Shown here in pieces: positions 10,527-25,927 of a DNA stretch of 64,000 bases. Each line of letters begins with the position of its first letter. Within the stretch, counting starts at the first letter, position 1. Position numbers and translations under genes: made by a program. The notes under the pieces are model-generated. The model saw only the letters and a list, made by a program, of their open reading frames with translations, was not told the origin of the DNA and ran no database searches. The stretch comes from Bacteroidota bacterium (GTDB lineage: Bacteria; Bacteroidota; Bacteroidia; AKYH767-A; OLB10). The stretch spans positions 8,168 through 72,167 of the forward strand of contig JAKPPP010000178.1 of NCBI GenBank assembly GCA_029547265.1, read 5' to 3'.

Positions 10527-10600
10527 TCCTTCTTAGCTCAGCTGGTTAGAGCACATGACTGTTAATCATGGGGTCCCTGGTTCGAGCCCAGGAGAGGGAG
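10527..10600 (+). tRNA. tRNA-Asn: tRNA-Asn (anticodon GTT)
   Basis: Folded by hand. Acceptor stem tccttct/agaggga (one G-U pair). D arm gctc-agctggtta-gagc. Anticodon stem catga/tcatg with loop ctGTTaa. T arm cctgg-ttcgagc-ccagg. Discriminator G. No encoded CCA. Confidence 0.9.
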
Positions 10601-12113
10601 CATCGTCAAAAACGCCATCGGAAACGATGGCGTTTTGTTTTATATGCCCTTGTAATTCATTGATAGTCTTGGTTATTAGGAGGAAAGCTTCGTTCACTAT
10701 ACTGGTTCGATACGAGTTTTGGTCGAAAACCAGTTTTTGCGGAAATATCGAACCAACAATCTTTTGTTTAATCTCTACAGAAGCATTATGATAAAAACGT
10801 CTCAGGTTGTCAACCAATGAGAAACCTTTCTTGATGTAAAGTGAGAAATCCGACTCTTGTTCAAGGATTTGAGCTTCACGATTTTTCAATTCAACTATTT
10901 CTTCATCAAGCTTTTTTTTCATTGCAGAATAGGTTTCCACATCAATATGATCAGCTATGAATTTTTCATTCAGGGATTTGAGTTTCGCAGTTAAACCAGA
11001 CATCTCCATCTTAATCTTTTTCAAATCGGTTTCTTTGCCAGAGTTCATCTGAGAGAACTTCTTTTCCAGTATGAAACGATACAATTTTTTTATCTCTGGT
11101 TGAATCTTGAAGCTACCGAAATATTCTTCAAGCAAGTCATGCGCAACATTTGCCCGCACCCGGAAATCACAGTGGTATTTTTTCTGGCAGTGATAATAGT
11201 GGTGAAGACTTCCATTCCTACTTTTGCTGGCAGACCCGGTGAGATGTCTGCCACACCTTGGACAAACCAAAAGTGATCGAAGTGGAAATTCAGTTCGCCT
11301 TAATTCACTTTGCCCTTTTGACTTCTTTCTATTATTCATCACCCACTGAACTCGGTTGAAAAGCTCTTCACTAACCAAAGGTTCGTGAAGACCCTTCAAA
11401 CTAAACCCTGGTTCGTTACGCCAGGGTTTAACATCGATTAAGCCACAGTAAAACCTATTTCGAAGCAAATTCAGGAACTTTTGCTTAGTGAAGTAGTACC
11501 CATAATCATCCCGAATTAATCTTCTTACTTCTTCGGCATAATACATTCCTGTTGCCATCAGCTCATACGCTCGAATAACGAAAACTGACGCAATGGGGTC
11601 GAATAAAATACCCTTAGTAGTCTTGTCGTTCAGGTAACCGACCGGTGCTCTTCCCATAAATCTACCTGCTCGCATTGCCTCTCGCATTCCTTTAGTTGTA
11701 TTAAGTGAAAGCCTTGCGTTATACACTTCTGCCATCGCCATATCGATGACTTTCATTATAAGATCTTCCGGATTTCCTGTATTGTAGTCTCTATCCGCAA
11801 ATCGTAATTCAACACCAAGCTTTTTTAATCGGGTAATCATTTCCAATGAATCCTGAAGATTTCTACTGAAGCGATCTATCCGAACACATAGTAAAATATC
11901 AGGGCGGATTCTCTTTGTTTCAACATCTTGAAGGAATTTTTTAAACTGAGGGCGATTGAAGTCTTTCGCAGAATAATCATCTTGGTAATGTCCAATAATT
12001 TCCATGCCCGATCTTTCTGCAAAGGAACGTAGACTACGCTCCTGTTCTTGAAGTGAAAAACCCTGTTTTCGTTGTTCGTCTGTCGACACTCTTGTGTACA
12101 AAATAGCCTTCAT
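10566..12113 (-). CDS. large serine recombinase (serine integrase)
   Basis: N-terminal resolvase motif ILYTRVSTDEQ and IDRFSRN. Recombinase domain. Zn-ribbon CPRCGRHLTG...HCQKKYHC. C-terminal coiled coil. The ORF runs antisense through the terminator and 35 nt of the tRNA. Confidence 0.9.
   Translation of the reverse strand: MKAILYTRVSTDEQRKQGFSLQEQERSLRSFAERSGMEIIGHYQDDYSAKDFNRPQFKKFLQDVETKRIRPDILLCVRIDRFSRNLQDSLEMITRLKKLGVELRFADRDYNTGNPEDLIMKVIDMAMAEVYNARLSLNTTKGMREAMRAGRFMGRAPVGYLNDKTTKGILFDPIASVFVIRAYELMATGMYYAEEVRRLIRDDYGYYFTKQKFLNLLRNRFYCGLIDVKPWRNEPGFSLKGLHEPLVSEELFNRVQWVMNNRKKSKGQSELRRTEFPLRSLLVCPRCGRHLTGSASKSRNGSLHHYYHCQKKYHCDFRVRANVAHDLLEEYFGSFKIQPEIKKLYRFILEKKFSQMNSGKETDLKKIKMEMSGLTAKLKSLNEKFIADHIDVETYSAMKKKLDEEIVELKNREAQILEQESDFSLYIKKGFSLVDNLRRFYHNASVEIKQKIVGSIFPQKLVFDQNSYRTSIVNEAFLLITKTINELQGHIKQNAIVSDGVFDDAPSPGLEPGTP
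10573..10601 (+). repeat. attL-like copy of the direct repeat (intact tRNA-Asn 3' end)
   Basis: 29 nt: gtccctggttcgagcccaggagagggagc. Confidence 0.6.
10608..10641 (+). terminator. rho-independent terminator just 3' of tRNA-Asn (island-borne copy)
   Basis: aacgccatcg-gaaa-cgatggcgtt followed by ttgtttt. Lies inside the C-terminal tail of the antisense recombinase ORF. Confidence 0.7.
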
Positions 12114-12511
12114 ATTTTTTTCTTCCTTTTATAGTATGTTCCTAATATTTCAGATTCAACCCTACTAAATTCAATTTCATTTGGGGTGTCATCAATGAAT
12201 TTAATTTTCACTCCAGCATTCAGTAGTTTGTGCAACAACTCCACCGCCTTCAATAATGAACTACTGAACCTGTCTGAAGATGTACAGACAATCATTTTTA
12301 TTTTATTTTCTCGAGATTCGATGTCTTTCAACATTTGACCGAATTGTACACGGTTGAAATCATTCCCATTTGCGACATCGTAATATACACCAGAAATTGT
12401 GAGATCATTCTCCTTTGCATAAGTTGTTAATCTTGCGATCTGGTTTTGAATGGATTTATTTGGATTTTTGTCTTGCTTAGTTGCCGTTCTGGCATAAAGT
12501 GCTACTTTCAT
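12110..12511 (-). CDS. small resolvase-fold protein lacking the catalytic serine (pseudo-recombinase)
   Basis: MKVALYARTATKQ aligns with MKAILYTRVSTDEQ, so Ser is replaced by Ala. DRFSSS aligns with DRFSRN, so an active-site Arg is lost. Its stop overlaps the integrase start (ATGA at 12110-12113). Start set at the internal Met at 12511. Confidence 0.7.
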   Translation of the reverse strand: MKVALYARTATKQDKNPNKSIQNQIARLTTYAKENDLTISGVYYDVANGNDFNRVQFGQMLKDIESRENKIKMIVCTSSDRFSSSLLKAVELLHKLLNAGVKIKFIDDTPNEIEFSRVESEILGTYYKRKKKI

Positions 12512-12689
12512 TATTATTATTTTTAGAATTTGTGAAACTTTCGATTTGGTATTGTAAGTATTCAAGCTCAGCCATGCGTATAAGCACCTCACGAATTGCT
12601 TTAACTTCCTTATCACTGAACTTTCTTTTCCCTTTCGTTTGATTAAGTATAGCGGTGCATTTATCGAGCGGAATCATGAGGAGTATCAT
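12477..12689 (-). CDS. small hypothetical protein (about 66-70 aa)
   Basis: The only plausible ORF covering 12512-12660. Overlaps both neighbours in the way compact operons do. No recognisable motif. Confidence 0.35.
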   Translation of the reverse strand: MILLMIPLDKCTAILNQTKGKRKFSDKEVKAIREVLIRMAELEYLQYQIESFTNSKNNNNESSTLCQNGN

Positions 12690-15444: not shown

Positions 15445-15462
15445 TTTTTTGAATTCAAAAAA
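15445..15462. promoter_or_regulatory. perfect 18-bp palindrome TTTTTTGAATTCAAAAAA upstream of the XRE-hsdM operon (candidate operator)
   Basis: Read directly from the sequence, 32 nt upstream of the XRE start codon at 15494. Confidence 0.4.
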
Positions 15463-15493
15463 AGACGTATTTTGTCCTGTCAAAATTATTCAG

Positions 15494-15799
15494 ATGAAAA
15501 GAGTTGGAGAAACATTGCGAGAGCTGCGAAATAGGAGACATCTTCTTATTCGTGAAGTAGCTGCCTCTGTTAATATGGATCAAACGCTATTGTCGAAGAT
15601 TGAAAGGGATGAGAGACTTCCGACTGTAGAGCAAGTGAAATCACTATCAAAGTTTTATAAGACAGACGGAAATGATATTCTACTCGCTTATCTAAGTGAT
15701 AAGGTGTTGATGGAGCTTAAAGACCAACCTCTCGCATTACAGGCAATTCAAATTGCCGAAGAAAAAATTCAGAAATCACAAGTAAATAAAAAGAAATAA
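15494..15799 (+). CDS. XRE-family HTH regulator translationally coupled to hsdM (controller-like)
   Basis: LRELRNRRHLLIREVAASVNMDQTLLSKIERDERLPTVEQV. Its stop overlaps the hsdM start as TAATG (15797-15801). Confidence 0.8.
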   Translation: MKRVGETLRELRNRRHLLIREVAASVNMDQTLLSKIERDERLPTVEQVKSLSKFYKTDGNDILLAYLSDKVLMELKDQPLALQAIQIAEEKIQKSQVNKKK

Positions 15800-18264
15800 T
15801 GGCGGTTAAGAAAAGTGAACTTTATACATCACTCTGGAAGGGTTGCGATGAACTACGTGGCGGAATGGATGCCTCTCAGTACAAAGACTACGTATTGACT
15901 TTGCTCTTCGTAAAGTATGTTAGCGACAAGTATGCCGGACGCAAAGATGCTGTGATTGAAATCCCTGAAGGTGGTTCGTTTTCTGATATGGTTCAACTCA
16001 AAGGGAAGAAAGACATAGGTGATGGATTAAATAAAATCATTGGTAAGCTGGCTACAGCAAATGATTTACGTGGGGTAATAGATGTGGCAGACTTTAACGA
16101 CAGTGATAAGCTTGGCAAGGATAAAGCCATGCAAGACCGCTTGTCAAACCTCATTTCCATTTTCGAGAATTCTTCTTTAGACTTTTCAAAAAATAGAGCT
16201 GACGGTGATGACCTTTTAGGTGATGCTTACGAATATTTGATGCGTCACTTTGCAACAGAATCAGGTAAATCAAAAGGACAGTTCTATACACCTGCCGAGG
16301 TTAGTCGCATTCTGGCTAACGTTATTGGAATTAAGCACGCTAAAAGCCAGGATCAAACGATTTATGATCCGACATGCGGAAGTGGCTCTCTCTTATTGAA
16401 AGCTGCTGATGAAACGGAAAAGGGTTTAACCATATACGGGCAAGAGAACGATAATGCTACAGCAGCCTTGGCGAAAATGAATATGATTCTGCACAATAAT
16501 CCAACTGGGGAAATCAAGCAAGATAATACTCTTGCTAACCCTCTTTTCCTTAACCCGGACAAAACGCTGAAGACTTTTGATTATGTAGTGGCTAATCCTC
16601 CCTTCAGTTATGCATCTTGGAGTAATGGATTGGATGCTGAAAATGACTTGTACGAGCGATTTAAAGGGTTTGGAATCCCTCCAACCAAAAATGGGGACTA
16701 TGCTTTCCTCTTGCACATCGTTCGTTCGTTAAAGAGCTCCGGAAAGGGTGCTGTGATTTTACCTCATGGTGTTTTATTCCGTGGTGGTGCCGAAGGCACT
16801 ATCCGGACTAACCTTATTCGTAGAGGTTATATCAAGGGAATTATAGGTTTGCCTGCAAACTTATTCTACGGTACGGGTATCCCTGCTGCGATTATCATCA
16901 TTGACAAGGAAAATGCGTTGGCTCGTAAGGGCATTTTCATGATTGATGCATCGAAAGGATTTGTGAAGGATGGCAACAAAAATCGTTTACGTGATCAAGA
17001 CATTCATAAAATTGTCGATGCCTTCAACAACCAAACTGAAATAGAAAAGTTCAGTCGATTAGTTCCTGTGGCTGAAATTGAAGCCAATGAATTTAACCTG
17101 AATATTCCTCGTTATATTGACTCGCAGGAGCAAGAGGACATACAAGACATCGAAGCTCATTTGTTAGGTGGAATACCATTGGCAGACATTGATGCGCTTC
17201 AACCGTATTGGGAAGTATATCCAGCATTGCGAAATACGCTTTTCAAAAAGAATGTTCGTCCCAAGTATGTTGATTTAAACGTACCAAAAGAAGAAATCAA
17301 AGCTACGATTTACAATCATCCGGAATTCAAGGCGTATAAAGCGGAAGTTGAAGATGTGTTTAATGGTTGGAAGAAAAGTGTTGTTCCTGTTCTTGAGGTT
17401 ATTCAAATAGGGGATAAACCAAAGCACTTGATTAAAGAGATTTCCGAAGATCTGTTAAACCGATTTTCGAATTTGAAGCTGATTGACAAATACGATGTTT
17501 ATCAAAACTTAATGCAATACTGGTCTGACACAATGCAAGACGATGTTTACACACTTGTTGTAGATGGTTGGTTAGCCGGAAGAGTTGTAGAAAAGCAGGA
17601 TAAAAAAAGGGAATGGGAAGGACTACTCATTCCTAAGGCATTGGTAATACAGAAATACTTTCAATCCGAGCAACAGACAATTGATGATTTGCAATTAAAA
17701 AGAGATGAACTCTCACAACAATTGAGTGATTTAGAAGAGGAACATGGTGGTGAAGAGGGATTGTTCTCTGAAGTGAAGAACGATAAAGACAAGGTGAATA
17801 AAGCAATGGTTCAAAAACGTATCAAGCATCTTGAAAAATCAGTGAACAAAAAGCAACTAAGTTTAGCTGCTGAACAAGTATACGATTACGCATCTAAAGA
17901 AGAATATTCTGATGCAGATGAGTTCATGATGTTGAGTAGGTGGATAAACTTAACCGACAAAATATCTGAGCAAGACAAATTAATCAAAGAAGCTGAGGCT
18001 AAACTGGACGAGGCATTATTGAAGAAATTCGGTTTGCTTTCTGAAAAGGAAATTAAGGATTTAATTGTTGGTGATAAGTGGCTTCATACATTAAATGATG
18101 CGGTTCATTCAGAGATGAATAGAATTAGCCAAAAATTAACCCAAAGGATAATTATACTCATTGAACGTTATCAAGAAACACTGTTAACTCAAATACAGAA
18201 GATTCAAGTACTTGAGAAGAAAGTTGAAAATAATCTTACCAAAATGGGCTTTACATGGCAGTAG
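15799..18264 (+). CDS. hsdM: Type I restriction-modification system methyltransferase subunit, with a C-terminal extension of about 380 aa
   Basis: HsdM_N-like N-terminus. SAM motif DPTCGSGSLL. Catalytic motif VVANPPFS. NIPRYID marks the end of the MTase core at about aa 441. A coiled-coil-rich extension follows to aa 821. Confidence 0.9.
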   Translation: MAVKKSELYTSLWKGCDELRGGMDASQYKDYVLTLLFVKYVSDKYAGRKDAVIEIPEGGSFSDMVQLKGKKDIGDGLNKIIGKLATANDLRGVIDVADFNDSDKLGKDKAMQDRLSNLISIFENSSLDFSKNRADGDDLLGDAYEYLMRHFATESGKSKGQFYTPAEVSRILANVIGIKHAKSQDQTIYDPTCGSGSLLLKAADETEKGLTIYGQENDNATAALAKMNMILHNNPTGEIKQDNTLANPLFLNPDKTLKTFDYVVANPPFSYASWSNGLDAENDLYERFKGFGIPPTKNGDYAFLLHIVRSLKSSGKGAVILPHGVLFRGGAEGTIRTNLIRRGYIKGIIGLPANLFYGTGIPAAIIIIDKENALARKGIFMIDASKGFVKDGNKNRLRDQDIHKIVDAFNNQTEIEKFSRLVPVAEIEANEFNLNIPRYIDSQEQEDIQDIEAHLLGGIPLADIDALQPYWEVYPALRNTLFKKNVRPKYVDLNVPKEEIKATIYNHPEFKAYKAEVEDVFNGWKKSVVPVLEVIQIGDKPKHLIKEISEDLLNRFSNLKLIDKYDVYQNLMQYWSDTMQDDVYTLVVDGWLAGRVVEKQDKKREWEGLLIPKALVIQKYFQSEQQTIDDLQLKRDELSQQLSDLEEEHGGEEGLFSEVKNDKDKVNKAMVQKRIKHLEKSVNKKQLSLAAEQVYDYASKEEYSDADEFMMLSRWINLTDKISEQDKLIKEAEAKLDEALLKKFGLLSEKEIKDLIVGDKWLHTLNDAVHSEMNRISQKLTQRIIILIERYQETLLTQIQKIQVLEKKVENNLTKMGFTWQ

Positions 18265-19529
18265 TAGAGAAAAGTTATAAGCAAACCGAAGTTGGATTAA
18301 TCCCAACAGATTGGGTGGTGTTTAGCTTTGGTGAAATTGTCGATTACACCAAGGGTTATGCATTTAAATCAAACGATTATAAAGATAATGGAATCCGGAT
18401 AATTCGAGTAAGTGATACTACGTATGATTCAGTTAAGAAAGAGAACGGTATATATTTGGAAGAGAAATTTGCTAAACAATTTAACAATTGGAAACTTGAC
18501 GAAGGCGACCTAATATTTTCAACCGTTGGTTCTAAACCGCCAATGTATGATTCAATGGTTGGAAAAGTAATAATGGTCTCCAAGGAGTTTGAAGGATGTT
18601 TATTAAATCAGAATGCTGTTCTAATAAGATCCAAAAAGCGCAAAAAGGAAATTCAGGCACTTTTGTTAAGCCATTTCCGGACGAAAAGGTATTTGCAATA
18701 CATAGAACTTATTTTTAGAGGTAACGCTAATCAAGCGAGTATCACATTAAAAGACTTATTTGAATTTAAAATCCCACTTCCTAAGAGTGACTCCGAACAA
18801 ACAGCCATTGCCACCGCCCTAAGCAATATAGATTCGCTGATCAGTAATTTGGAGAAGTTGATTGAGAAGAAGAGGATGATTAAGCAGGGAGTTATGCAGG
18901 AGTTGTTGAAGCCGACAGTGGATTGGGTCACTTATGATTTATATGAGTCATGTGAACTTATTACGAAAGGCACAACCCCAACTTCAATTGGTCAAGAGTT
19001 TAAAAATGGGGGAATAAATTTCATAAAAATAGAATCACTTACTTCGAAAGGTGAAATTGTCCCCGATAAAGTTGCATATATTGATAATCTTACTCATAAG
19101 ATATTAAACCGATCCCAACTCAAAGTCGGGGATCTTCTTTTTTCAATTGCAGGTGCTTTAGGTAGGGTTGCTTTGGTGAATGAAAGCATATTACCAGCAA
19201 ATACTAATCAAGCTCTTGCTATTATACGACTTAAGGATGATTCAAAAATAAATGGTGATTTCTTGTTCTACTATTTAAACAGCCGTAAAATCCAAAACCA
19301 TATTTTGGGAATTAGTGTACAAGGTGCGCAAGCGAACTTGTCTTTACAAAACATTTCTGACTTTAAAATTAACTGCCCAAAGATAAAAGAAGAACAATTT
19401 AATATAGCTAAAACTTTGCGATCTCTGGATGATGAACTTACATTATTGGAAAATCAACAATCTAAGTACAACCAAATTAAGCAAGGAATGATGCAATCAT
19501 TATTAACAGGTAAAATTAGGTTGATTTGA
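18255..19529 (+). CDS. hsdS: Type I restriction-modification specificity subunit
   Basis: Two target-recognition halves, each followed by a conserved helix (...EQTAIATALSNIDSLISNLEKLIEKKRMIKQGVMQELL and ...EQFNIAKTLRSLDDELTLLENQQSKYNQIKQGMMQSLLTGKIRL). Overlaps hsdM by 10 nt. Confidence 0.9.
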   Translation: MAVVEKSYKQTEVGLIPTDWVVFSFGEIVDYTKGYAFKSNDYKDNGIRIIRVSDTTYDSVKKENGIYLEEKFAKQFNNWKLDEGDLIFSTVGSKPPMYDSMVGKVIMVSKEFEGCLLNQNAVLIRSKKRKKEIQALLLSHFRTKRYLQYIELIFRGNANQASITLKDLFEFKIPLPKSDSEQTAIATALSNIDSLISNLEKLIEKKRMIKQGVMQELLKPTVDWVTYDLYESCELITKGTTPTSIGQEFKNGGINFIKIESLTSKGEIVPDKVAYIDNLTHKILNRSQLKVGDLLFSIAGALGRVALVNESILPANTNQALAIIRLKDDSKINGDFLFYYLNSRKIQNHILGISVQGAQANLSLQNISDFKINCPKIKEEQFNIAKTLRSLDDELTLLENQQSKYNQIKQGMMQSLLTGKIRLI

Positions 19530-19573: not shown

Positions 19574-19876
19574 ATGGAATCAATACCTTTAAAAGATCTG
19601 CTTTATATTCTTTCAAGTGTTGTAGCAGTCGTAATAACTTTTTACACGACCAAACACAACCTAAAGGATTTCATGCGAGACAAAATGGACGAGTGTAACA
19701 ATAAGGTAAATGCAAATAAAGACCTTATTGCAAAACAGAATGTTGAGTTGGAAAGGTTGAAAACGAGCTTAGAGTATCAGAAGCAAATACTGGATCAATT
19801 TCAAAAGCAAATTGTACCACATCTTCCAGACATTTTCATGTTAATTGGTGAAAGGAGGAACAATGGAAACAAATAA
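19574..19876 (+). CDS. small membrane-anchored coiled-coil protein (unknown function)
   Basis: 100 aa. N-terminal hydrophobic helix LLYILSSVVAVVITFY, then a heptad-like region (NKDLIAKQNVELERLKTSLEYQKQILDQFQKQI). Confidence 0.55.
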   Translation: MESIPLKDLLYILSSVVAVVITFYTTKHNLKDFMRDKMDECNNKVNANKDLIAKQNVELERLKTSLEYQKQILDQFQKQIVPHLPDIFMLIGERRNNGNK

Positions 19877-20111
19877 CAATTTAGATTTTAACAGGTTATT
19901 TGAACTAAACCAAAAAGTTCAAAATAAGTTGGCATCAAAGCCAGAAGCCGATGAGTATATGCTATTGCTTTTGAAAAACAACTCTATTTCTAAAAAACAG
20001 TACGAGGACTATATAGCTGGTCGAAATAAAGAAGAGCTGTTCGATACGGCTGTTACTATAGGAGGTATTGTACTGCTTGGTTATTTGCTTGGCAAAATAT
20101 TTTCGAAATAG
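19863..20111 (+). CDS. small tail-anchored membrane protein (unknown function)
   Basis: 82 aa from METNNNL. Preceded by aaaggaggaacaATG. Overlaps the previous gene by 14 nt. C-terminal hydrophobic helix AVTIGGIVLLGYLLGKIF. Confidence 0.5.
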   Translation: METNNNLDFNRLFELNQKVQNKLASKPEADEYMLLLLKNNSISKKQYEDYIAGRNKEELFDTAVTIGGIVLLGYLLGKIFSK

Positions 20112-20166
20112 TTGGCACAAAAGATATATGAACGGGATACTACTATAACTTTTATTAGAAACACAA

Positions 20167-20910
20167 ATGGAACCATACATAAATGCCTTCATTGAAATAT
20201 TGAGATTCGGTTTGCCAAGTGTCTTATTGCCTCTTTTAATAATTAGATGGAACAATCAACACAATATAAAGCTAAAAGAACTCGAACAAAAATTGGAAGT
20301 GGAAAAACTTTCTACTTCGAAATCTATTGAAAAAACCTTTGTGGTTGATAATGAAAAGCGCATACACGAAAAGGATGTTTACGCCTGCCTCTTAAAAACA
20401 TTATTCGAAATACAAAAATTGCATATTGAACTTTCGGGAAATTGTGTAGACTTTAAATGTATTGATTCTGCGGTAATGAAATTCAAAGCATCTTTAACAA
20501 AGTATCAGGAGATCATCGCTGACAATCAAATTTATTTATCTGCTGAAGCAACGAATTACTTATACGGTTTCTATCAACTTACTGGTGAATTACTCATTGA
20601 ACTAAAAGAAATTCAGGATAAAAAGAAATATCACTTGGCTAATGCTTGCGTTTATTTGAAATCACAATTTTTAGCAATGAAAACATTGCAAGTAAGGCAC
20701 GGTTTCAATCAGGATTCACAGGAGCAAATTGATGAAGAACTGTTTGAAAAGGAATATAGCAATTTTATTTCATGTTGTGGAAACGCTCCAGGAAGTTCCC
20801 TAATGGAAGAGTACTTTGATTTTTCGAGTGAATTTAAGACTGGAGGCAAACAGGAGATTGAAGAGGAGGAAGGAACAGTCACAGCAGAAAGAACTATTCC
20901 TGAGAAATAA
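20167..20910 (+). CDS. hypothetical protein with an N-terminal hydrophobic segment and an acidic tail
   Basis: 247 aa. FGLPSVLLPLLIIRW near the N-terminus, a helical central region, and a C-terminal EIEEEEG tail. Ends 34 nt before hsdR. Confidence 0.6.
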   Translation: MEPYINAFIEILRFGLPSVLLPLLIIRWNNQHNIKLKELEQKLEVEKLSTSKSIEKTFVVDNEKRIHEKDVYACLLKTLFEIQKLHIELSGNCVDFKCIDSAVMKFKASLTKYQEIIADNQIYLSAEATNYLYGFYQLTGELLIELKEIQDKKKYHLANACVYLKSQFLAMKTLQVRHGFNQDSQEQIDEELFEKEYSNFISCCGNAPGSSLMEEYFDFSSEFKTGGKQEIEEEEGTVTAERTIPEK

Positions 20911-20944
20911 AGTACATAAGATATTTTTCGATAGAATAAATAGC

Positions 20945-23900
20945 ATGAGCAAAGTAGGCGAAATAGAACGCAAAACCCAGGATAGAATCGTAATGCTTTT
21001 AGCTAACGATTTGAAGTACGACTACCTGGGTAATTTTCAAGATAGAGAGGACAACTCTAATATTGAAGTAGAACTTCTGAAATCACATTTAACTGATCGT
21101 GGTTATTCCGAAGTTTTGATTAGTCGGGCTGTTGCTGAATTGATCAAGACTGCCGGAGATCAAAACAGGAGCCTTTACGATGTAAATAAGGATGTATATC
21201 AACTACTTCGTTATGGAGCAAAGCAAAAAGAAGAAGTTGGCAAACAAAAAGAAACGGTTCATTTCATAGATTGGGAGAAACCCAACAATAATACCTTTTC
21301 ATTTGCAGAGGAAGTTAGTATTAGAGGCGAAAACACAAAACGCCCTGATATTGTACTTTACATCAATGGGATTGCTATTGCTGTCTTGGAATTGAAGCGT
21401 AGTACGATTAGTGTGAGCGAAGGAATTCGTCAGAATATCGACAATCAGAAACGAACATTCATTCGTCCGTTTTTCACTACGATGCAATTAGTAATGGCGG
21501 GCAATGATACGGAGGGCTTACGTTACGGTTCGATTGAAACACCGGAGAAATATTACCTAATGTGGAAGGAAGAATACCCTTCAGAAAACTTATTGGACAA
21601 GCATATTCATTGCGTTTGCCGTAAGGAAAGAATTTTGGAACTGCTGCATGATTTCGTAGTCTTCGATAGAGGGATAAAGAAATTATCGAGGGTGAATCAG
21701 TATTTCGGAGTGAAGGCTGCACAAGATTTCTTAAAGAGAAGAGAAGGCGGTGTTATTTGGCATACGCAAGGTTCAGGTAAAAGTCTTGTGATGGTTTGGC
21801 TGACAAAATGGATTCGTGAGAATATTAACGGCTCCCGTGTACTGATCATCACAGATAGAGATGAACTTGATAAGCAGATTGAGAAAGTCTTTAAAGGAGT
21901 AAACGAAGAAATCATTCGAACTAAGTCAGGAGCCGATCTCATTGAAAAATTGAATTTAGCATCTCCGTGGTTGATGTGTTCCTTAATTCATAAATTCGGG
22001 AATAAAGAAGAGCCCGATTACGATGAATACATCGAAGATCTAAAAAAGAGCCTTCCAAAGGATTTCAAAGCGAAGGGTGATATTTATGTATTGGTAGATG
22101 AATGCCACCGGACACAAAGCGGAAAACTTCACAAGGCAATGAAAATGATATTGCCTAATTCCGTGTTTGTTGGATTTACCGGAACTCCACTCTTGAAGGC
22201 TGATAAGGAAACCAGTTTAGAAGTATTTGGCAGGTATATACACACCTATAAGTTCGATGAAGCAGTAAAAGATAAAGTTGTTCTTGACTTGTTATATGAA
22301 GCCCGTGATATTGATCAATATATCACTTCTCAAAGTAAAATTGACCAGTGGTTCGACTCAAAAACAAAAGGACTTAACGAATACCAACGAACTGAATTGA
22401 AAAAACGATGGGGAACGATGCAAAAAGTGTTGAGTTCTAAGTCTCGTCTTGAACAAATTGTCAAGGACATTGTATTCGACATGAGTACCAAACCACGTTT
22501 GATGAGTGGTCGTGGAAATGCAATGTTGGTGAGTGGAAGCATTTATCAAGCGTGTAAATTCTACGAACTTTTTCAGCATACAGACTTAGCTGGTAAATGT
22601 GCAATAGTTACAAGTTATAACCCATCGGTAAGCGATATTAAAGGAGAAGCAAGTTCCGACAATGCCATTACCGAAAAATTAAAGCAATACGAGATCTACA
22701 ATCAAATGTTGAACGGTAAAACTGCCGAAGCGTTTGAAGAAGAAGCAAAGACCAAGTTCATTGATGAGCCAGCACAATTAAAATTGTTGATAGTTGTAGA
22801 TAAATTATTGACCGGCTTTGATGCACCGAGTGCAACATACTTGTATATCGACAAGAGTATGCAAGATCACGGATTATTCCAAGCAATTTGTCGAGTGAAC
22901 AGATTGGATGGAGATGACAAAGAGTATGGTTATGTGATAGACTATAAAGACTTGTTTGATAGCTTGAAAAAATCCATTCAGGATTACACTTCAGAAGCAT
23001 TTGACGGATATAACGAAGAAGATGTAAAAGGTCTTTTGACTGATAGGCTTACCAAGAGTCGTGAACACTTGGAAGAAGTATTGGAAGGGTTACGTGCATT
23101 AATTGAACCAGTGGAAATGCCAAAAGGGCAAATCCAATACATACGTTACTTCTGCGGAGATCCCGAAAAGAGTACTGATTTAAAGGAGAATGAACCGAAG
23201 CGTGTTACATTGTATAAACAAACATCTTCACTCATTCGAGCTTATGCTGCATTAGCGAATGAAATGGAAGATGCCGGTTACACATACTGTGAATCAGAAT
23301 CAATCAAGAGCGAAGTTGACTTCTTTGTTAAATTGAGGGATGAAATAAAAAATGCAAGCGGGGAAAAGATTGATTTAAAAGCATACGAACCCGACATGCG
23401 TTACTTGATCGACTCGTACATTAAAGCAGATGAGAGCGAGAAATTATCTGAGATGGATGACCTTTCTTTAATTCAACTGATTGTTGAGCGAGGAATGGAT
23501 GAAGCCGAAAAGAGTTTGCCAAATTCCATCCGTAAAAGTAAAGAAGCGATGGCGGAAACCATTGAGAATAATATTCGAAGACTCATCATTGACGAAACAC
23601 CAACCAACCCCAAGTACTTTGAAAAAATGAGTGTTCTACTTGAAGAATTGGTTAAAGAACGTAAGAGGGCGAAGATTGAATACTTAGAATACCTCCGAAA
23701 GATTGTTGAGCTAAGTAAGAACGTTAAAAAACCTGAATCAAGCGGACAGTACCCTCCTACAGTAAATTCAAGAGGAAAGCGAGCAATTTACGATAACGTT
23801 AACAAGGATGAAAAGTTAACAGTAGCACTTGACCAAGAAATACTTTATACACGAAAAGATAGTTGGAGAGGGAATAAAGCCAAAGAGAAGGAGATAAGAA

Positions 23901-23980
23901 TAGCAATCCGCAAACATGTGCAGGACGATGAACTTGTTGATGCTATATTCGACATTATCAAGCAACAACCGGAGTATTAA
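20945..23980 (+). CDS. hsdR: Type I restriction endonuclease subunit R
   Basis: N-terminal PD-(D/E)xK (RPDIVLYINGIAIAVLELKR). SF2 helicase motifs HTQGSGKS, DECHRTQSG, GFTGTP and QAICRVNR. Start set at MSKVGEIERK (20945). Confidence 0.9.
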   Translation: MSKVGEIERKTQDRIVMLLANDLKYDYLGNFQDREDNSNIEVELLKSHLTDRGYSEVLISRAVAELIKTAGDQNRSLYDVNKDVYQLLRYGAKQKEEVGKQKETVHFIDWEKPNNNTFSFAEEVSIRGENTKRPDIVLYINGIAIAVLELKRSTISVSEGIRQNIDNQKRTFIRPFFTTMQLVMAGNDTEGLRYGSIETPEKYYLMWKEEYPSENLLDKHIHCVCRKERILELLHDFVVFDRGIKKLSRVNQYFGVKAAQDFLKRREGGVIWHTQGSGKSLVMVWLTKWIRENINGSRVLIITDRDELDKQIEKVFKGVNEEIIRTKSGADLIEKLNLASPWLMCSLIHKFGNKEEPDYDEYIEDLKKSLPKDFKAKGDIYVLVDECHRTQSGKLHKAMKMILPNSVFVGFTGTPLLKADKETSLEVFGRYIHTYKFDEAVKDKVVLDLLYEARDIDQYITSQSKIDQWFDSKTKGLNEYQRTELKKRWGTMQKVLSSKSRLEQIVKDIVFDMSTKPRLMSGRGNAMLVSGSIYQACKFYELFQHTDLAGKCAIVTSYNPSVSDIKGEASSDNAITEKLKQYEIYNQMLNGKTAEAFEEEAKTKFIDEPAQLKLLIVVDKLLTGFDAPSATYLYIDKSMQDHGLFQAICRVNRLDGDDKEYGYVIDYKDLFDSLKKSIQDYTSEAFDGYNEEDVKGLLTDRLTKSREHLEEVLEGLRALIEPVEMPKGQIQYIRYFCGDPEKSTDLKENEPKRVTLYKQTSSLIRAYAALANEMEDAGYTYCESESIKSEVDFFVKLRDEIKNASGEKIDLKAYEPDMRYLIDSYIKADESEKLSEMDDLSLIQLIVERGMDEAEKSLPNSIRKSKEAMAETIENNIRRLIIDETPTNPKYFEKMSVLLEELVKERKRAKIEYLEYLRKIVELSKNVKKPESSGQYPPTVNSRGKRAIYDNVNKDEKLTVALDQEILYTRKDSWRGNKAKEKEIRIAIRKHVQDDELVDAIFDIIKQQPEY

Positions 23981-23983
23981 TCG

Positions 23984-24697
23984 ATGAAGCAAATTCAGAT
24001 AAGCAATATAACAATTGATGTCGTAAAAAAAGACATCAAGAACATCCACTTGGCGGTCTATCCACCGACAGGTCGTGTTCGTATTGCTACTCCATTGCAT
24101 ACTACTGATGATTCCATTCGCTTGTTTGCTATTTCAAAATTGGGTTGGATAAAACGCCAACAGCGAAATTTTGAAAAACAAAAAAGACTTCCTTCAAAGG
24201 AGTACGTTAACCGTGAAAGCCATTTCTACTTGGGCAAGCGGTATTTGTTAAATGTAATTGAATCAATAGACAAGCCTAAAATTATTGTTCGGCATAGTAG
24301 AATTGACCTTTATGTTCGTCCCGGAACATCTATTGAACAAAAAAACGAACTTCTTTCTGATTGGTATCGCAATCAACTGAAAGACCATATCTCACCATTG
24401 ATTACGAAATGGGAAAAGATCTTGAAAGTAAAAGTTCAGCATTGGGGTATTCGTAAAATGAAAACAAAGTGGGGAAGTTGTACAATCGAAACACAACGAA
24501 TACTTCTCAACCTCGAATTGATTAAAAAGCCTGTAGCTTGTTTGGAGTACATAATTGCCCACGAATTGGTACACTTGCTCGAACGGCATCATAATGATCG
24601 CTTTCTTTCCATTCTTAGCAAGCATCTTCCAAATTGGAAACATTTAAAGGAAGAATTGAATCGTTTTCCACTTGATCATTCGGATTGGGAGTATTAA
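23984..24697 (+). CDS. DUF45/YgjP-like (M48/SprT-like) zinc metallopeptidase
   Basis: HExxH motif in IIAHELVHLLERHHN. Starts 3 nt after the hsdR stop. Confidence 0.85.
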   Translation: MKQIQISNITIDVVKKDIKNIHLAVYPPTGRVRIATPLHTTDDSIRLFAISKLGWIKRQQRNFEKQKRLPSKEYVNRESHFYLGKRYLLNVIESIDKPKIIVRHSRIDLYVRPGTSIEQKNELLSDWYRNQLKDHISPLITKWEKILKVKVQHWGIRKMKTKWGSCTIETQRILLNLELIKKPVACLEYIIAHELVHLLERHHNDRFLSILSKHLPNWKHLKEELNRFPLDHSDWEY

Positions 24698-25339: not shown

Positions 25340-25927
25340 ATGGCAACTAAATACTGTAAAACTGAATGTACGGCTCTTGAGTGGGAACAATTCCTAATTC
25401 TGGTTGACCGGCTTAAGAAAACTACTGAATACCGGTTCCTACTGTTGATTTGTATTGGATGTTATTGCGGACTTCGTTTATCAGATATACTTCAATTAAG
25501 ATGGCATGATATACTTGAGAAGGATTATTTTGAACTTGCAGAGAGGAAAACTGGTAAACACAGGAGGATAACTATTAACTCTTCTTTAAAGGAGATCATA
25601 GTATTCTCTTACTCAAATCTTCAGAGAAAAAAGCAAATCTGCGCTGGAGATTTCATTTTTACCAATCGCAAAGGTGGAGTACTCTCTAAACAGTTCGTCA
25701 ACCGGAAACTACATTCAATTTTCCAGTATTGTAGGGTTAAAGTTCAAAATGGCAGTTCTCATACTCTTCGCAAAACATTTGGGAAGCGAGTTTACGAAAT
25801 GAATGATCGCAGTGAAGCTGCCCTTATTCTGCTGAGTTCGATCTTCAATCACAATTCGGTTGCAGTTACCAGACGATATATCGGCTTATCACAAGAACAA
25901 ATCAAAGACGCTTATATCAACTTATAA
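25340..25927 (+). CDS. short tyrosine recombinase (catalytic domain only)
   Basis: 195 aa. Catalytic residues in the expected order: Arg I in GLRLSDILQLRW, H-x-x-R in HTLRKTFG, and His/Tyr in NHNSVAVTRRYI. Only about 40 aa precede Arg I, so there is no core-binding domain. Confidence 0.8.
   Translation: MATKYCKTECTALEWEQFLILVDRLKKTTEYRFLLLICIGCYCGLRLSDILQLRWHDILEKDYFELAERKTGKHRRITINSSLKEIIVFSYSNLQRKKQICAGDFIFTNRKGGVLSKQFVNRKLHSIFQYCRVKVQNGSSHTLRKTFGKRVYEMNDRSEAALILLSSIFNHNSVAVTRRYIGLSQEQIKDAYINL

What the first reader, a model, noticed from the sequence alone, without database searches (positions are those of the whole stretch)
19574..20910. Three small membrane/coiled-coil genes embedded between hsdS and hsdR: candidate R-M-linked abortive-infection module
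The hsdMS and hsdR genes are interrupted by three co-directional ORFs:
- a 100-aa protein with an N-terminal TM helix and a coiled coil
- an 82-aa tail-anchored protein, with an AGGAGG-like site and a 14-nt overlap with the first
- a 247-aa protein with an N-terminal hydrophobic segment and an acidic tail

None shows a recognisable catalytic motif. This is the position occupied by the anticodon nuclease gene prrC in the E. coli prr locus (prrA/hsdM, prrB/hsdS, prrC, prrD/hsdR). There, the R-M complex holds a suicide effector in check until phage anti-restriction triggers it. A holin-like, membrane-acting trio at that position would be a different effector logic, and I cannot assign it to any described system.
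Basis: partly seen in the sequence, partly recalled or inferred. Interest (0 to 1): 0.8.

Follow-up and report, generated by a model that had tools for sequence, protein, structure and literature searches.

The report
Orphan membrane-protein cassettes inside a restriction operon
Three small membrane-protein genes do sit inside a Type I restriction-modification operon, but they are two separately mobile cassettes of unknown function in a known hotspot for defence genes, not one three-gene system tied to the restriction enzyme.

Summary
ORF1 (19574-19876, 100 aa), ORF2 (19863-20111, 82 aa, 14-nt overlap) and ORF3 (20167-20910, 247 aa) lie between hsdS and hsdR. The operon reads HTH-hsdM-hsdS-[slot]-hsdR-YgjP/M48 peptidase. 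All three are real genes under purifying selection, each has one hydrophobic helix, and none matches a known family or fold.

The trio is not a unit.
- ORF1+ORF2 is a conserved, always-overlapping two-gene module. It occurs in the same slot of orthologous operons with different downstream cargo. It also occurs beside other Type I R-M loci, SIR2-HerA, AbiE, KAP NTPase/Qat-like and MmeI-like genes, and once in a prophage-like element.
- ORF3 is a solitary gene found elsewhere without ORF1/2 or Type I R-M. Only one other locus has all three, and there ORF3 is much less diverged than its flanks.
- The same R-M family exists with an empty slot or with other cargo.

The hsdS-hsdR slot is a published embedding hotspot (PrrC, DarTG2, TgvAB, "guilt-by-embedding").

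Best reading: two independent, uncharacterised, membrane-anchored candidate defence cassettes. A PrrC-like R-M-guarded suicide trio is not supported. Function and mechanism remain inferred.

The parts
15449..15799 (+). XRE-type HTH regulator, first gene of the operon. The true start may be the internal Met near 15494.
   Evidence: Pfam HTH_31/HTH_3. A homologue occupies the same position in L007, L015 and L017. It is analogous in position to RptR of the EPEC island.
15799..18264 (+). hsdM, long form (821 aa)
   Evidence: Pfam HsdM_N + N6_Mtase. PADLOC MTase_I PDLC03027 matches full length.
18255..19529 (+). hsdS (424 aa), overlapping hsdM by 10 nt
   Evidence: Pfam Methylase_S, two stretches. 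Only the central region around 18763-18915 is conserved at DNA level with related loci.
19574..19876 (+). ORF1: a 100-aa single-pass membrane protein. It has a short N-terminus, a TM helix at ~9-25, a basic juxtamembrane stretch and a helical (coiled-coil-like) C-terminal part with a conserved QxQ..D...LP motif. It is the first gene of the mobile pair.
   Evidence: dN/dS is 0.035-0.16.
19863..20111 (+). ORF2: an 82-aa tail-anchored protein. It has three short helices carrying an invariant DEYM...N..I...Q...Y motif, then a C-terminal TM helix (IGGIVLLGYLLG). It is the second gene of the pair, and its start overlaps the end of ORF1.
   Evidence: The AF2 model has pLDDT 82. The overlap with ORF1 is kept in every locus.
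20112..20944 (+). Variable cargo segment of the slot. Homology with sister operons stops at the ORF2 stop codon and resumes just before the hsdR ATG.
   Evidence: blastn breakpoints at 20107-20110 and 20935-20945. No convincing flanking repeats were found.
20167..20910 (+). ORF3: a 247-aa protein with an N-terminal TM helix, a long helix, a four-helix bundle and an acidic disordered tail. Four Cys are invariant (C93, C98, C203, C204). It is a separate single-gene cassette.
   Evidence: It is unrelated to the 255/256-aa cargo of sister loci. It is less diverged from L017 than its flanks are.
20945..23980 (+). hsdR (1011 aa)
   Evidence: Pfam HSDR_N, SWI2_SNF2, T1R_D3-like. It is 55-62% identical to HsdR on plasmids of several phyla.
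23984..24697 (+). YgjP-like/SprT-like (M48-type) metallopeptidase, last gene of the conserved operon
   Evidence: Pfam YgjP-like, E = 5.8e-58. The same gene follows hsdR in L005, L007, L015, L017 and L043-L045 and in the EPEC RRDM island.

Best explanation
The hsdS-hsdR gap of this Type I R-M operon is a cargo slot. Here it holds two independent cassettes, not one system.

**Cassette A: ORF1 + ORF2.**
- It is an autonomous two-gene module encoding two single-pass inner-membrane proteins.
- Their starts and stops always overlap, which suggests translational coupling.
- By the positive-inside rule and the tail anchor, their soluble helical parts should face the cytoplasm.
- The two proteins most likely form a hetero-oligomeric membrane complex.

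**Cassette B: ORF3.**
- It is an autonomous single gene encoding a membrane-tethered, cytoplasm-facing four-helix bundle with a conserved four-cysteine site.

**Evolution and function.**
- Both cassettes move between defence islands and mobile elements.
- Both are transcribed here with the hsd genes.
- They most likely act as stand-alone anti-phage modules at the membrane, of the exclusion, abortive-infection or toxin-antitoxin type, complementing restriction rather than being held in check by it.

**What is shown and what is inferred.**
- Shown: gene reality, architecture, modularity, separate evolutionary histories and defence-island association.
- Inferred: topology, complex formation, defence function and membrane mode of action.
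For: **Modularity**
- Sister operons share hsdM to ORF2 and hsdR to ygjP at about 71-77% nucleotide identity. Between the ORF2 stop and the hsdR ATG they carry unrelated cargo: 255/256 aa + DUF8426-NucS_C, with or without Fic.
- Only L017 has all three genes.
- Between the window and L017, ORF3 is 85% identical in nucleotides, with third-position identity 0.68 and dS 0.94. Every flanking gene is 67-74% identical, with third-position identity 0.41-0.54 and dS saturated in all except the HTH gene (1.6).

**The pair is a unit**
- An ORF1-like gene precedes every ORF2-like gene and overlaps it by 4-17 nt in 13 distinct contexts.
- No third gene recurs with them.

**Defence association of the pair**
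- Five Type I R-M-linked contexts covering four different hsd arrangements, plus one next to a YgjP-like gene: window lineage, L012-14, L022/L031, L019, L021.
- SIR2-HerA (L018, L027).
- AbiEi/AbiEii (L020/L028).
- KAP NTPase with a QueC-like gene (L030).
- KAP + PIN (L025).
- MmeI-like + AAA_15 + NucS + KAP (L029).
- A prophage-like element (L011).

**ORF3 relatives stand alone** next to Mrr_cat_2-SNF2, RNase_T/ExoVII + GmrSD, DUF4145/RES and AAA_21 genes, or inside an integrase-bearing element.

**The R-M family does not need them.** The slot is empty in L045 and holds other cargo in L043 and L044.

**The slot is a published hotspot**.

**Real proteins.** dN/dS is 0.02-0.16. AF2 pLDDT is 81-82.

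**Topology.** K/R residues follow the TM helix in ORF1 and ORF3. The ORF3 homologue P0019 carries a lipoprotein-like signal peptide ahead of its TM helix.
Against: - No functional evidence of any kind exists. There is no homology to a tested defence protein: PADLOC, which includes its candidate systems, gave no significant hit.
- Guilt by association is weaker for such rare families: 7, 15 and 19 clusters at 90% identity among 5.8 billion proteins.
- The association is counted on about 13 contexts for the pair and about 7 for ORF3, without a computed background rate.
- One pair context (L034) shows no defence neighbour.
- In the window's own operon lineage the pair is always present and has diverged about as much as the hsd genes. 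A lineage-specific functional link to this R-M enzyme therefore cannot be excluded.
- Topology, oligomerisation and the Cys4 site were not tested.
Confidence: 0.55

Rival explanations
1. One reading: the three proteins form one suicide effector that the HsdMSR complex keeps silent. Phage anti-restriction releases it, as with PrrC/EcoprrI, but the effector here is a membrane (holin-like) one.
For: The genes are in the same position as prrC, between hsdS and hsdR. In the window's operon lineage the ORF1-ORF2 pair is always present and is as old as the hsd genes. Five of about 13 pair contexts involve Type I R-M.
Against: - The trio is found in only 2 loci.
- ORF3 is swapped for unrelated cargo in sister operons and has a younger history.
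- Both cassettes occur far from any hsd gene.
- In L012-14 the pair lies outside the R-M operon, on the opposite strand.
- The same R-M family exists with an empty slot.
- Payne et al. report PrrC as almost exclusively embedded in Type I R-M, unlike these genes.
Confidence: 0.07
2. ORF1-ORF2 is a membrane toxin/antitoxin (addiction) pair whose main role is to stabilise the mobile island or operon, not to stop phages. ORF2's glycine-rich tail anchor would be the toxic part, and ORF1 would neutralise it.
For: - The operon is a compact two-gene unit with overlapping, probably translationally coupled genes in all loci.
- The ORF2 TM helix has conserved small-residue motifs: invariant GG and G, and GxxxG/S.
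- The pair sits on mobile or integrated elements: serine recombinases and tRNA-Asn at 10.5-12.6 kb here, and integrases in L007, L011 and L015.
- It neighbours other TA systems such as AbiE.
Against: No homology to known membrane toxins was found; the GhoT hit is E = 0.12 in 3 of 11 members. The neighbours are mostly nuclease/NTPase-type defence systems rather than plasmid maintenance genes, and neither gene is found on PLSDB plasmids. This model is not exclusive of defence, since many TA pairs defend.
Confidence: 0.15
3. The pair is a captured phage gene set, either a lysis function (holin/antiholin or spanin-like) or a prophage superinfection-exclusion function.
For: ORF1 gives weak PHROG hits: phrog_8369 'hol-like' at E = 5e-5 and an Rz-like spanin family at E = 1e-3. 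One homologous pair sits at the end of the late-gene block of a prophage-like element, just before the integrase/CI module, which is a typical moron position. Size and single-pass topology resemble T4 Imm/Sp-type exclusion proteins (my own knowledge).
Against: - There are no relatives in IMG/VR or in 50,697 GenBank phage records.
- In L011 the pair is not adjacent to a CHAP gene; it lies about 3.5 kb and 8 genes away.
- ORF2 has no PHROG hit.
- The predicted soluble parts face the cytoplasm, unlike periplasm-facing exclusion proteins (inference).
Confidence: 0.1
4. The proteins are membrane tethers or adaptors that localise neighbouring nucleases/NTPases (HsdR, SIR2-HerA, KAP NTPases, Mrr-SNF2) to the site of phage DNA entry.
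For: ORF3 relatives lie directly upstream of, and co-directional with, a nuclease, helicase or ATPase gene in 5 of about 7 contexts, including hsdR here. The pair recurs next to membrane-associated KAP NTPases in 3 contexts.
Against: The partners are too diverse for a specific protein-protein interface. Both cassettes also occur without such a neighbour. The identical R-M family functions without them, given the empty slot in L045.
Confidence: 0.08
5. The cassettes are hitch-hiking accessory genes with a non-defence role (for example envelope stress or cell-cell competition immunity), sitting in a recombination hotspot by chance.
For: More than half of the genes embedded in defence systems have no assigned role. 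L034 shows a pair next to a GH9 glycosidase with no defence gene seen. An ORF3 relative lies beside NAD-salvage genes.
Against: Association with defence genes is consistent across loci of 25-63% GC and across many architectures. Strong purifying selection is seen in these contexts.
Confidence: 0.1

Closest known systems
PrrC anticodon nuclease in the E. coli prr locus (EcoprrI hsdM-hsdS-prrC-hsdR)
   Same: The genomic position is identical, between hsdS and hsdR of a Type I R-M operon, co-directional and co-transcribed.
   Different: PrrC is a soluble ~400-aa ABC-ATPase-like protein with a tRNA nuclease domain (my own knowledge), and it is almost exclusively embedded in Type I R-M. The genes here encode 82-247-aa membrane-anchored helical proteins with no nuclease or ATPase signature. 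They occur widely outside R-M loci.
DarTG2 in the EPEC RptR-RMS-DarTG-M48 island, and TgvAB in V. cholerae VPI-2
   Same: The operon plan is the same: small regulator, hsdM, hsdS, embedded autonomous cassette, hsdR and, in EPEC, an M48 peptidase. The embedded cassette acts independently of restriction, and the site is described as a probable recombination hotspot. An E. coli plasmid with the same HsdR family carries two DUF262 genes in the slot.
   Different: Those cargos are enzymatic (ADP-ribosyltransferase/glycohydrolase; GmrSD-like nuclease) and experimentally validated. The cargos here are orphan membrane proteins, and nothing is known of their activity.
Phage defence candidates found by 'guilt-by-embedding' (Payne et al. 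2024, PADLOC PDC/HEC sets)
   Same: The same logic applies: uncharacterised cassettes nested in Type I R-M that also have non-embedded homologues near other defence systems.
   Different: None of the three proteins matches a PADLOC-DB v2.0.0 model at a meaningful score. The families are very rare and would fall below abundance cut-offs.
Small membrane-protein defences: lambda RexAB, T4 Imm/Sp, lactococcal AbiP/AbiC
   Same: They work alike in outline: small or N-terminally anchored, non-enzymatic membrane proteins that exclude or abort infection. AbiP is a single-gene protein with one N-terminal TM helix and a helical extra-membrane domain, which resembles ORF3's layout.
   Different: No sequence or fold relationship was detected. 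RexB is a multi-pass channel with a soluble partner (my own knowledge), whereas here both partners are single-pass. ORF3's Cys4 four-helix bundle has no counterpart in those proteins as far as tested.

Membership tests
PrrC-type R-M-guarded anticodon nuclease | Gene lies between hsdS and hsdR of a Type I R-M operon | tested here: met
PrrC-type R-M-guarded anticodon nuclease | ABC-ATPase-like N-domain plus C-terminal nuclease domain; matches PrrC models | tested here: not met
   No PADLOC, Pfam or NCBIfam hit. The models are all-helical membrane proteins.
PrrC-type R-M-guarded anticodon nuclease | Near-exclusive association with Type I R-M (as reported) | tested here: not met
   The pair and ORF3 are found in many loci without R-M.
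PrrC-type R-M-guarded anticodon nuclease | Physical masking by the R-M complex and activation by a phage anti-restriction factor | not testable with these tools
   Needs biochemistry and genetics.
Defence cassette embedded in a defence operon ('guilt-by-embedding' candidate) | Nested inside a multi-gene defence system, co-directional, with no mobilome or housekeeping domain | tested here: met
Defence cassette embedded in a defence operon ('guilt-by-embedding' candidate) | Homologues recur, embedded or not, next to other known defence systems | tested here: met
   No background rate was computed.
Defence cassette embedded in a defence operon ('guilt-by-embedding' candidate) | Already catalogued as a PADLOC candidate or known system | tested here: not met
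   The only hit is Cas10_Id at E = 0.0024, 14 bits, for ORF1, which is a coiled-coil artefact. ORF2 and ORF3 have none.
Defence cassette embedded in a defence operon ('guilt-by-embedding' candidate) | Measurable anti-phage activity | not testable with these tools
   Needs plaque assays.
Phage lysis genes (holin/antiholin, spanin) | Encoded in phage genomes, adjacent to an endolysin | tested here: not met
   Absent from IMG/VR and INPHARED. In the one prophage-like locus the pair is about 3.5 kb from the CHAP genes.
Phage lysis genes (holin/antiholin, spanin) | Significant match to a holin or spanin family | tested here: inconclusive
   ORF1 only: phrog_8369 at E = 5e-5 (24 bits) and phrog_739 at E = 1e-3. 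ORF2 has none. The pattern is typical of a TM + coiled-coil composition.
Two-gene toxin-antitoxin operon | Compact, overlapping two-gene operon conserved as a unit | tested here: met
   Overlaps of 4-17 nt in all loci. No third partner recurs.
Two-gene toxin-antitoxin operon | One product is toxic and is neutralised by the other | not testable with these tools
   Needs expression experiments.
Lactococcal AbiC/AbiP-type membrane-anchored single-gene Abi (considered for ORF3) | N-terminal TM helix or helices plus a helical extra-membrane domain in one protein | tested here: met
   AF2 model and hydropathy.
Lactococcal AbiC/AbiP-type membrane-anchored single-gene Abi (considered for ORF3) | Sequence or profile relationship to Abi models | tested here: not met
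   No PADLOC or Pfam hit. hhalign against the Pfam Abi_C-domain protein of L012 gives probability 0.1%. That Pfam family was used only as an available comparator, and AbiP itself was not at hand.

The most novel reading that the evidence does not exclude
ORF1-ORF2 would define a previously undescribed, minimal anti-phage system made only of two single-pass membrane proteins. Together they would be both sensor and effector, acting at the inner membrane, and the cassette would spread through Bacteroidota-type defence islands. ORF3 would define a second, single-protein membrane-tethered Cys4 four-helix-bundle defence. The hsdS-hsdR slot of this R-M family would then behave like a cassette array that stacks such modules behind one regulated promoter.
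Probability: 0.3. Interest if true: 0.6.

Novelty: new member of a known kind. Interest (0 to 1): 0.4.

Why it matters
If the cassettes defend against phages, they add two new, very small, non-enzymatic membrane modules to the defence catalogue. Both come from a poorly sampled phylum. Because the systems are so minimal, how they sense infection could be dissected directly.

The locus also shows cassette turnover at the hsdS-hsdR hotspot. One cassette (the pair) stays fixed while the next position is exchanged, and the ORF3 cassette was shared more recently than its flanks.

As it stands, this is one more uncharacterised cargo in a known hotspot, and the families are rare.

Tried and rejected
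**Family and fold searches that gave nothing usable**
- Pfam, NCBIfam, PADLOC and PHROGs on the three proteins, and on every member of the ORF1 and ORF2 alignments at E <= 10. Only coiled-coil or compositional noise appeared.
- Pfam on 10 distant ORF3 relatives, looking for informative domain fusions: none.
- A profile search of 1.84 billion representatives with the ORF3 alignment: only 58 proteins, all the same orphan family.
- AF2 + Foldseek for ORF3 against PDB and BFVD, and for ORF2 against PDB: no match with E < 0.2. The top ORF3 hits are generic four-helix bundles such as the Tar sensor and FAT domains.
- Profile searches of PDB sequences with all three alignments: nothing.

**Specific ideas rejected**
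- ORF3 homologous to the 255/256-aa cargo of sister loci: rejected.
- ORF3 related to the Pfam Abi_C protein embedded in the L012 R-M: rejected.
- SHOCT-like motif in ORF2, which I suspected by eye: no Pfam support.
- Flanking repeats or scars around the trio or ORF3: only short, weak, chance-level repeats, and the junctions are seamless.

**Collection searches with no result**
- Phage and plasmid collections: no relatives of ORF2 or ORF3, and none of ORF1 in IMG/VR.
- Identifying L011 as a known phage through its 620-aa protein: no match.
- An att repeat for the tRNA-Asn island: none longer than 13 nt.

**Low-value steps**
- The sigma-70 promoter scan is not informative: counts equal the shuffles, and Bacteroidota promoters differ.
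- One literature query was too broad to be useful.
Full report
**1. What is in the sequence**

Between hsdS (18255-19529) and hsdR (20945-23980) lie three co-directional ORFs:
- ORF1: 19574-19876, 100 aa.
- ORF2: 19863-20111, 82 aa. GGAGGA lies 5 nt upstream of its ATG, and it overlaps ORF1 by 14 nt.
- ORF3: 20167-20910, 247 aa, with an acidic tail.

Pfam confirms the flanks. HsdM is a long form of 821 aa (HsdM_N + N6_Mtase). HsdS has Methylase_S. HsdR has HSDR_N, SWI2_SNF2 and T1R_D3-like. PADLOC's MTase_I model PDLC03027 matches HsdM end to end. An XRE-type HTH gene (15449-15799) opens the operon and a YgjP-like metallopeptidase gene (23984-24697) closes it.

Gaps between genes are 34-55 nt or overlaps, and no terminator-like site lies between hsdS and hsdR on the + strand. 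Each of the three proteins has one hydrophobic stretch above the usual Kyte-Doolittle threshold: N-terminal in ORF1 and ORF3, C-terminal in ORF2.

**2. They are real genes, and orphans**

All three have homologues. Where synonymous sites are not saturated, dN/dS is 0.02-0.16. None matches a family in Pfam, NCBIfam, PADLOC or PHROGs beyond coiled-coil or compositional noise.

The families are tiny:
- ORF1, ORF2 and ORF3 have 7, 15 and 19 clusters at 90% identity among 5.8 billion proteins.
- A profile search of 1.84 billion representatives with the ORF3 alignment finds 58 proteins.
- Ten distant ORF3 relatives carry no Pfam domain.

**3. The trio is not a unit**

Orthologous operons have the same HTH, an 800-aa-class HsdM, HsdS, a 1011-aa HsdR, a YgjP-like gene and a 195-aa integrase-like gene. 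This holds for L005, L007-L010 and L015-L016.
- All of them carry ORF1 and ORF2 directly after hsdS.
- ORF2 is then followed by a 255/256-aa protein and a DUF8426-NucS_C nuclease, with or without a Fic gene, and not by ORF3.
- The 255/256-aa protein is unrelated to ORF3.
- DNA homology with these loci runs through the ORF2 stop (20107-20110) and resumes at 20935-20945, just before the hsdR ATG.
- There are no convincing flanking repeats.

Only one other locus, L017, has all three genes. There ORF3 is 85% identical in nucleotides, with third-position identity 0.68 and dS 0.94. Every flanking gene, ORF1 and ORF2 included, is 67-74% identical, with third-position identity 0.41-0.54 and dS saturated in all except the HTH gene (1.6). 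ORF3 therefore has a younger, separate history.

ORF3 relatives elsewhere stand alone. No ORF1/2 relative lies within the fetched flanks and vice versa. Their contexts are:
- upstream of an Mrr_cat_2-SNF2 helicase;
- beside RNase_T/ExoVII genes near GmrSD and AAA genes;
- inside an integrase-bearing element;
- upstream of DUF4145 and RES genes;
- upstream of an AAA_21 ATPase;
- next to NAD-salvage genes.

**4. ORF1-ORF2 is a mobile two-gene module of defence islands**

Every ORF2-like gene is preceded by an ORF1-like gene that overlaps it by 4-17 nt. The ORF1-like partners share the same layout and a conserved Q-x-Q...D...L-P motif down to 21% identity. No third gene recurs with them.

Outside the window's operon lineage, the pair is found in these contexts:
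- between an Mrr gene and a different, convergent Type I R-M that itself embeds an Abi_C gene (L012-14);
- at the end of an hsdR-hsdM-hsdS-pentapeptide-DUF5655 operon (L022/L031);
- after Fic-hsdM-hsdS (L019) and after a YgjP-like gene (L021);
- before SIR2-HerA (L018/L026) and after it (L027);
- after AbiEi/AbiEii (L020/L028);
- before a KAP NTPase and a QueC-like gene, which looks like a Qat-type system by my own knowledge (L030);
- after a KAP NTPase and a PIN_8 gene (L025);
- inside an MmeI-like/AAA_15/NucS/KAP cluster (L029);
- at the end of the late-gene block of a prophage-like element, before the integrase/CI genes (L011);
- once with no defence neighbour seen (L034).

These loci span 25-63% GC. 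Record titles and T9SS sorting domains in the flanks point mostly to Bacteroidota. No relative occurs in IMG/VR, in GenBank phages or on PLSDB plasmids.

**5. The R-M family does not need these genes, and the slot is a known hotspot**

HsdR proteins 55-62% identical to this one occur on plasmids of Pseudomonas, E. coli, cyanobacteria and actinobacteria, within the same hsdM-hsdS-[slot]-hsdR-SprT/YgjP operon.
- In Mycolicibacterium the slot is empty.
- In P. juntendi it holds one hypothetical gene.
- In E. coli it holds two DUF262 genes.
- None of these loci has ORF1-3 relatives.

Published work describes the same plan. DarTG2 lies between hsdS and hsdR in the EPEC RptR-RMS-DarTG-M48 island, where the site is called a potential recombination hotspot. 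TgvAB is embedded in the Vibrio cholerae VPI-2 Type I R-M and acts independently of restriction. Payne et al. use "guilt-by-embedding", note that more than half of embedded genes are unassigned, and report that PrrC is almost exclusively embedded in Type I R-M.

**6. Protein anatomy**

ORF1:
- a short N-terminus with a conserved K-D..Y;
- a TM helix at about residues 9-25;
- a basic juxtamembrane stretch;
- about 70 helical residues.

ORF2 (AF2 pLDDT 82):
- three short helices at 9-20, 26-38 and 44-51, carrying the invariant D30-E-Y-M...N39..I42...Q46...Y50;
- a C-terminal TM helix whose IGGIVLLG core is almost entirely invariant, followed by a GxxxG/S motif.

ORF3 (AF2 pLDDT 81):
- an N-terminal TM helix continuing into a long helix;
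- a four-helix bundle;
- a disordered acidic tail;
- four invariant cysteines, C-x4-C at 93/98 and CC at 203/204.

Basic residues after the TM helix in ORF1 and ORF3 suggest that all three soluble parts face the cytoplasm. So does a lipoprotein-type signal peptide ahead of the TM helix in homologue P0019, and so does the tail-anchor layout of ORF2. This topology is an inference. On that topology the ORF3 cysteines would more likely bind a metal than form disulfides, which is also an inference. Foldseek and PDB sequence searches gave nothing significant for any of the three.

**7. Most likely explanation**

The slot carries two independent cassettes. The pair is an autonomous, probably translationally coupled two-protein membrane complex. 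ORF3 is an autonomous membrane-tethered protein. Their near-constant company of restriction, Abi, SIR2-HerA, KAP/Qat-like and nuclease genes, together with their mobility, makes a stand-alone defence or toxin-antitoxin-type role at the membrane the best guess. In that role they would complement restriction rather than be controlled by it.

My confidence differs by step:
- Modular architecture and separate histories: about 0.85-0.9.
- Defence-related function: about 0.5.
- A membrane-permeabilising or exclusion mechanism: about 0.3.

The PrrC-like reading gets about 0.07. It keeps some weight because the pair is fixed in this operon lineage and five of about 13 contexts involve Type I R-M.

**8. 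Novelty and interest**

The phenomenon of cargo in the hsdS-hsdR hotspot is known. The cargos are new and uncatalogued, so they are new members of a known kind. Interest is moderate. However, candidate defence cassettes are numerous, these families are rare, and nothing yet ties them to a mechanism.

**9. Limits**
- No background rate for defence-gene neighbourhoods was computed.
- Context counts are small.
- Several loci are metagenomic bins with doubtful labels.
- Three contigs that carry an ORF3 relative were available only as gene tables without DNA.

Noticed in passing
window 10527-12616: tRNA-Asn (10527-10601, +) is overlapped by the 3' end of a 515-aa large serine recombinase gene (10566-12113, -), which is followed by a small resolvase gene (12110-12616, -). 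The R-M operon therefore probably sits on an island integrated at tRNA-Asn. The same recombinase pair flanks the sister operons L007 and L016. No att repeat longer than 13 nt was found.
   Followed up: partly
window 25340-25927: A short (195-aa) Phage_integrase-family gene is conserved about 0.6-1 kb downstream of ygjP in the window, L007, L015 and L017 (82% amino-acid identity to L017). It could be a truncated integrase or a small site-specific recombinase belonging to the island. No second hsdS or inverted repeats were looked for.
   Followed up: no
L005 12233-12383 (compare window 20935-20980): Upstream of the Fic gene, L005 and L010 carry a 46-aa ORF whose start is a copy of the hsdR 5' end (83-87% identical to the window's hsdR start). 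This looks like a footprint of cargo insertion by recombination at the hsdR start.
   Followed up: partly
L007 6276-8749: hsdM is split into 174-aa and 615-aa ORFs in L007 but is intact (824 aa) in the otherwise similar L008 and L009. This could be a frameshift, a phase variant or an assembly error.
   Followed up: no
L018 663-4134 and L027 6790-10234: SIR2-HerA genes that are 90-95% identical have an ORF1/ORF2-type pair upstream in one genome and a different, more divergent pair downstream in another.
   Followed up: partly
L025 3983-8518; L029 9593-13760; L030 125-4697: KAP-family P-loop NTPases recur within two genes of the pair in three otherwise different loci. L030 (pair, KAP, 291 aa, QueC-like) resembles a Qat-type system. 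A possible functional link between the pair and these NTPases, which are reported to be membrane-associated, was not explored.
   Followed up: partly
window 20167-20945; L003 10001-12836; L037 8001-9388; L039 1089-3257; contigs: ORF3 relatives lie immediately upstream of, and co-directional with, a nuclease, helicase or ATPase gene in 5 of about 7 contexts: hsdR, Mrr_cat_2-SNF2, RNase_T, DUF4145 and AAA_21.
   Followed up: partly
window 18255-19529: hsdS is only 31-33% identical in amino acids to hsdS of sister operons, while a central ~150-nt block (18763-18915) stays 80-88% identical in DNA. This is the usual pattern of swapped target-recognition domains around a conserved central region.
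   Followed up: no
L017, L019, L021 (record titles): Bin labels look unreliable. L017 is titled 'uncultured Bifidobacterium' but has 40% GC and the Bacteroidota-type operon. L019 and L021 are titled Chryseobacterium but have 62% GC. One ORF3 homologue (P0003) is named 'RaiA' by JGI with no support from any search here.
   Followed up: no
L023 812-1057: An activated-sludge metagenome contig (UOWE01056278) encodes ORF2 at 100% identity, which hints at the habitat of the window's organism.
   Followed up: no
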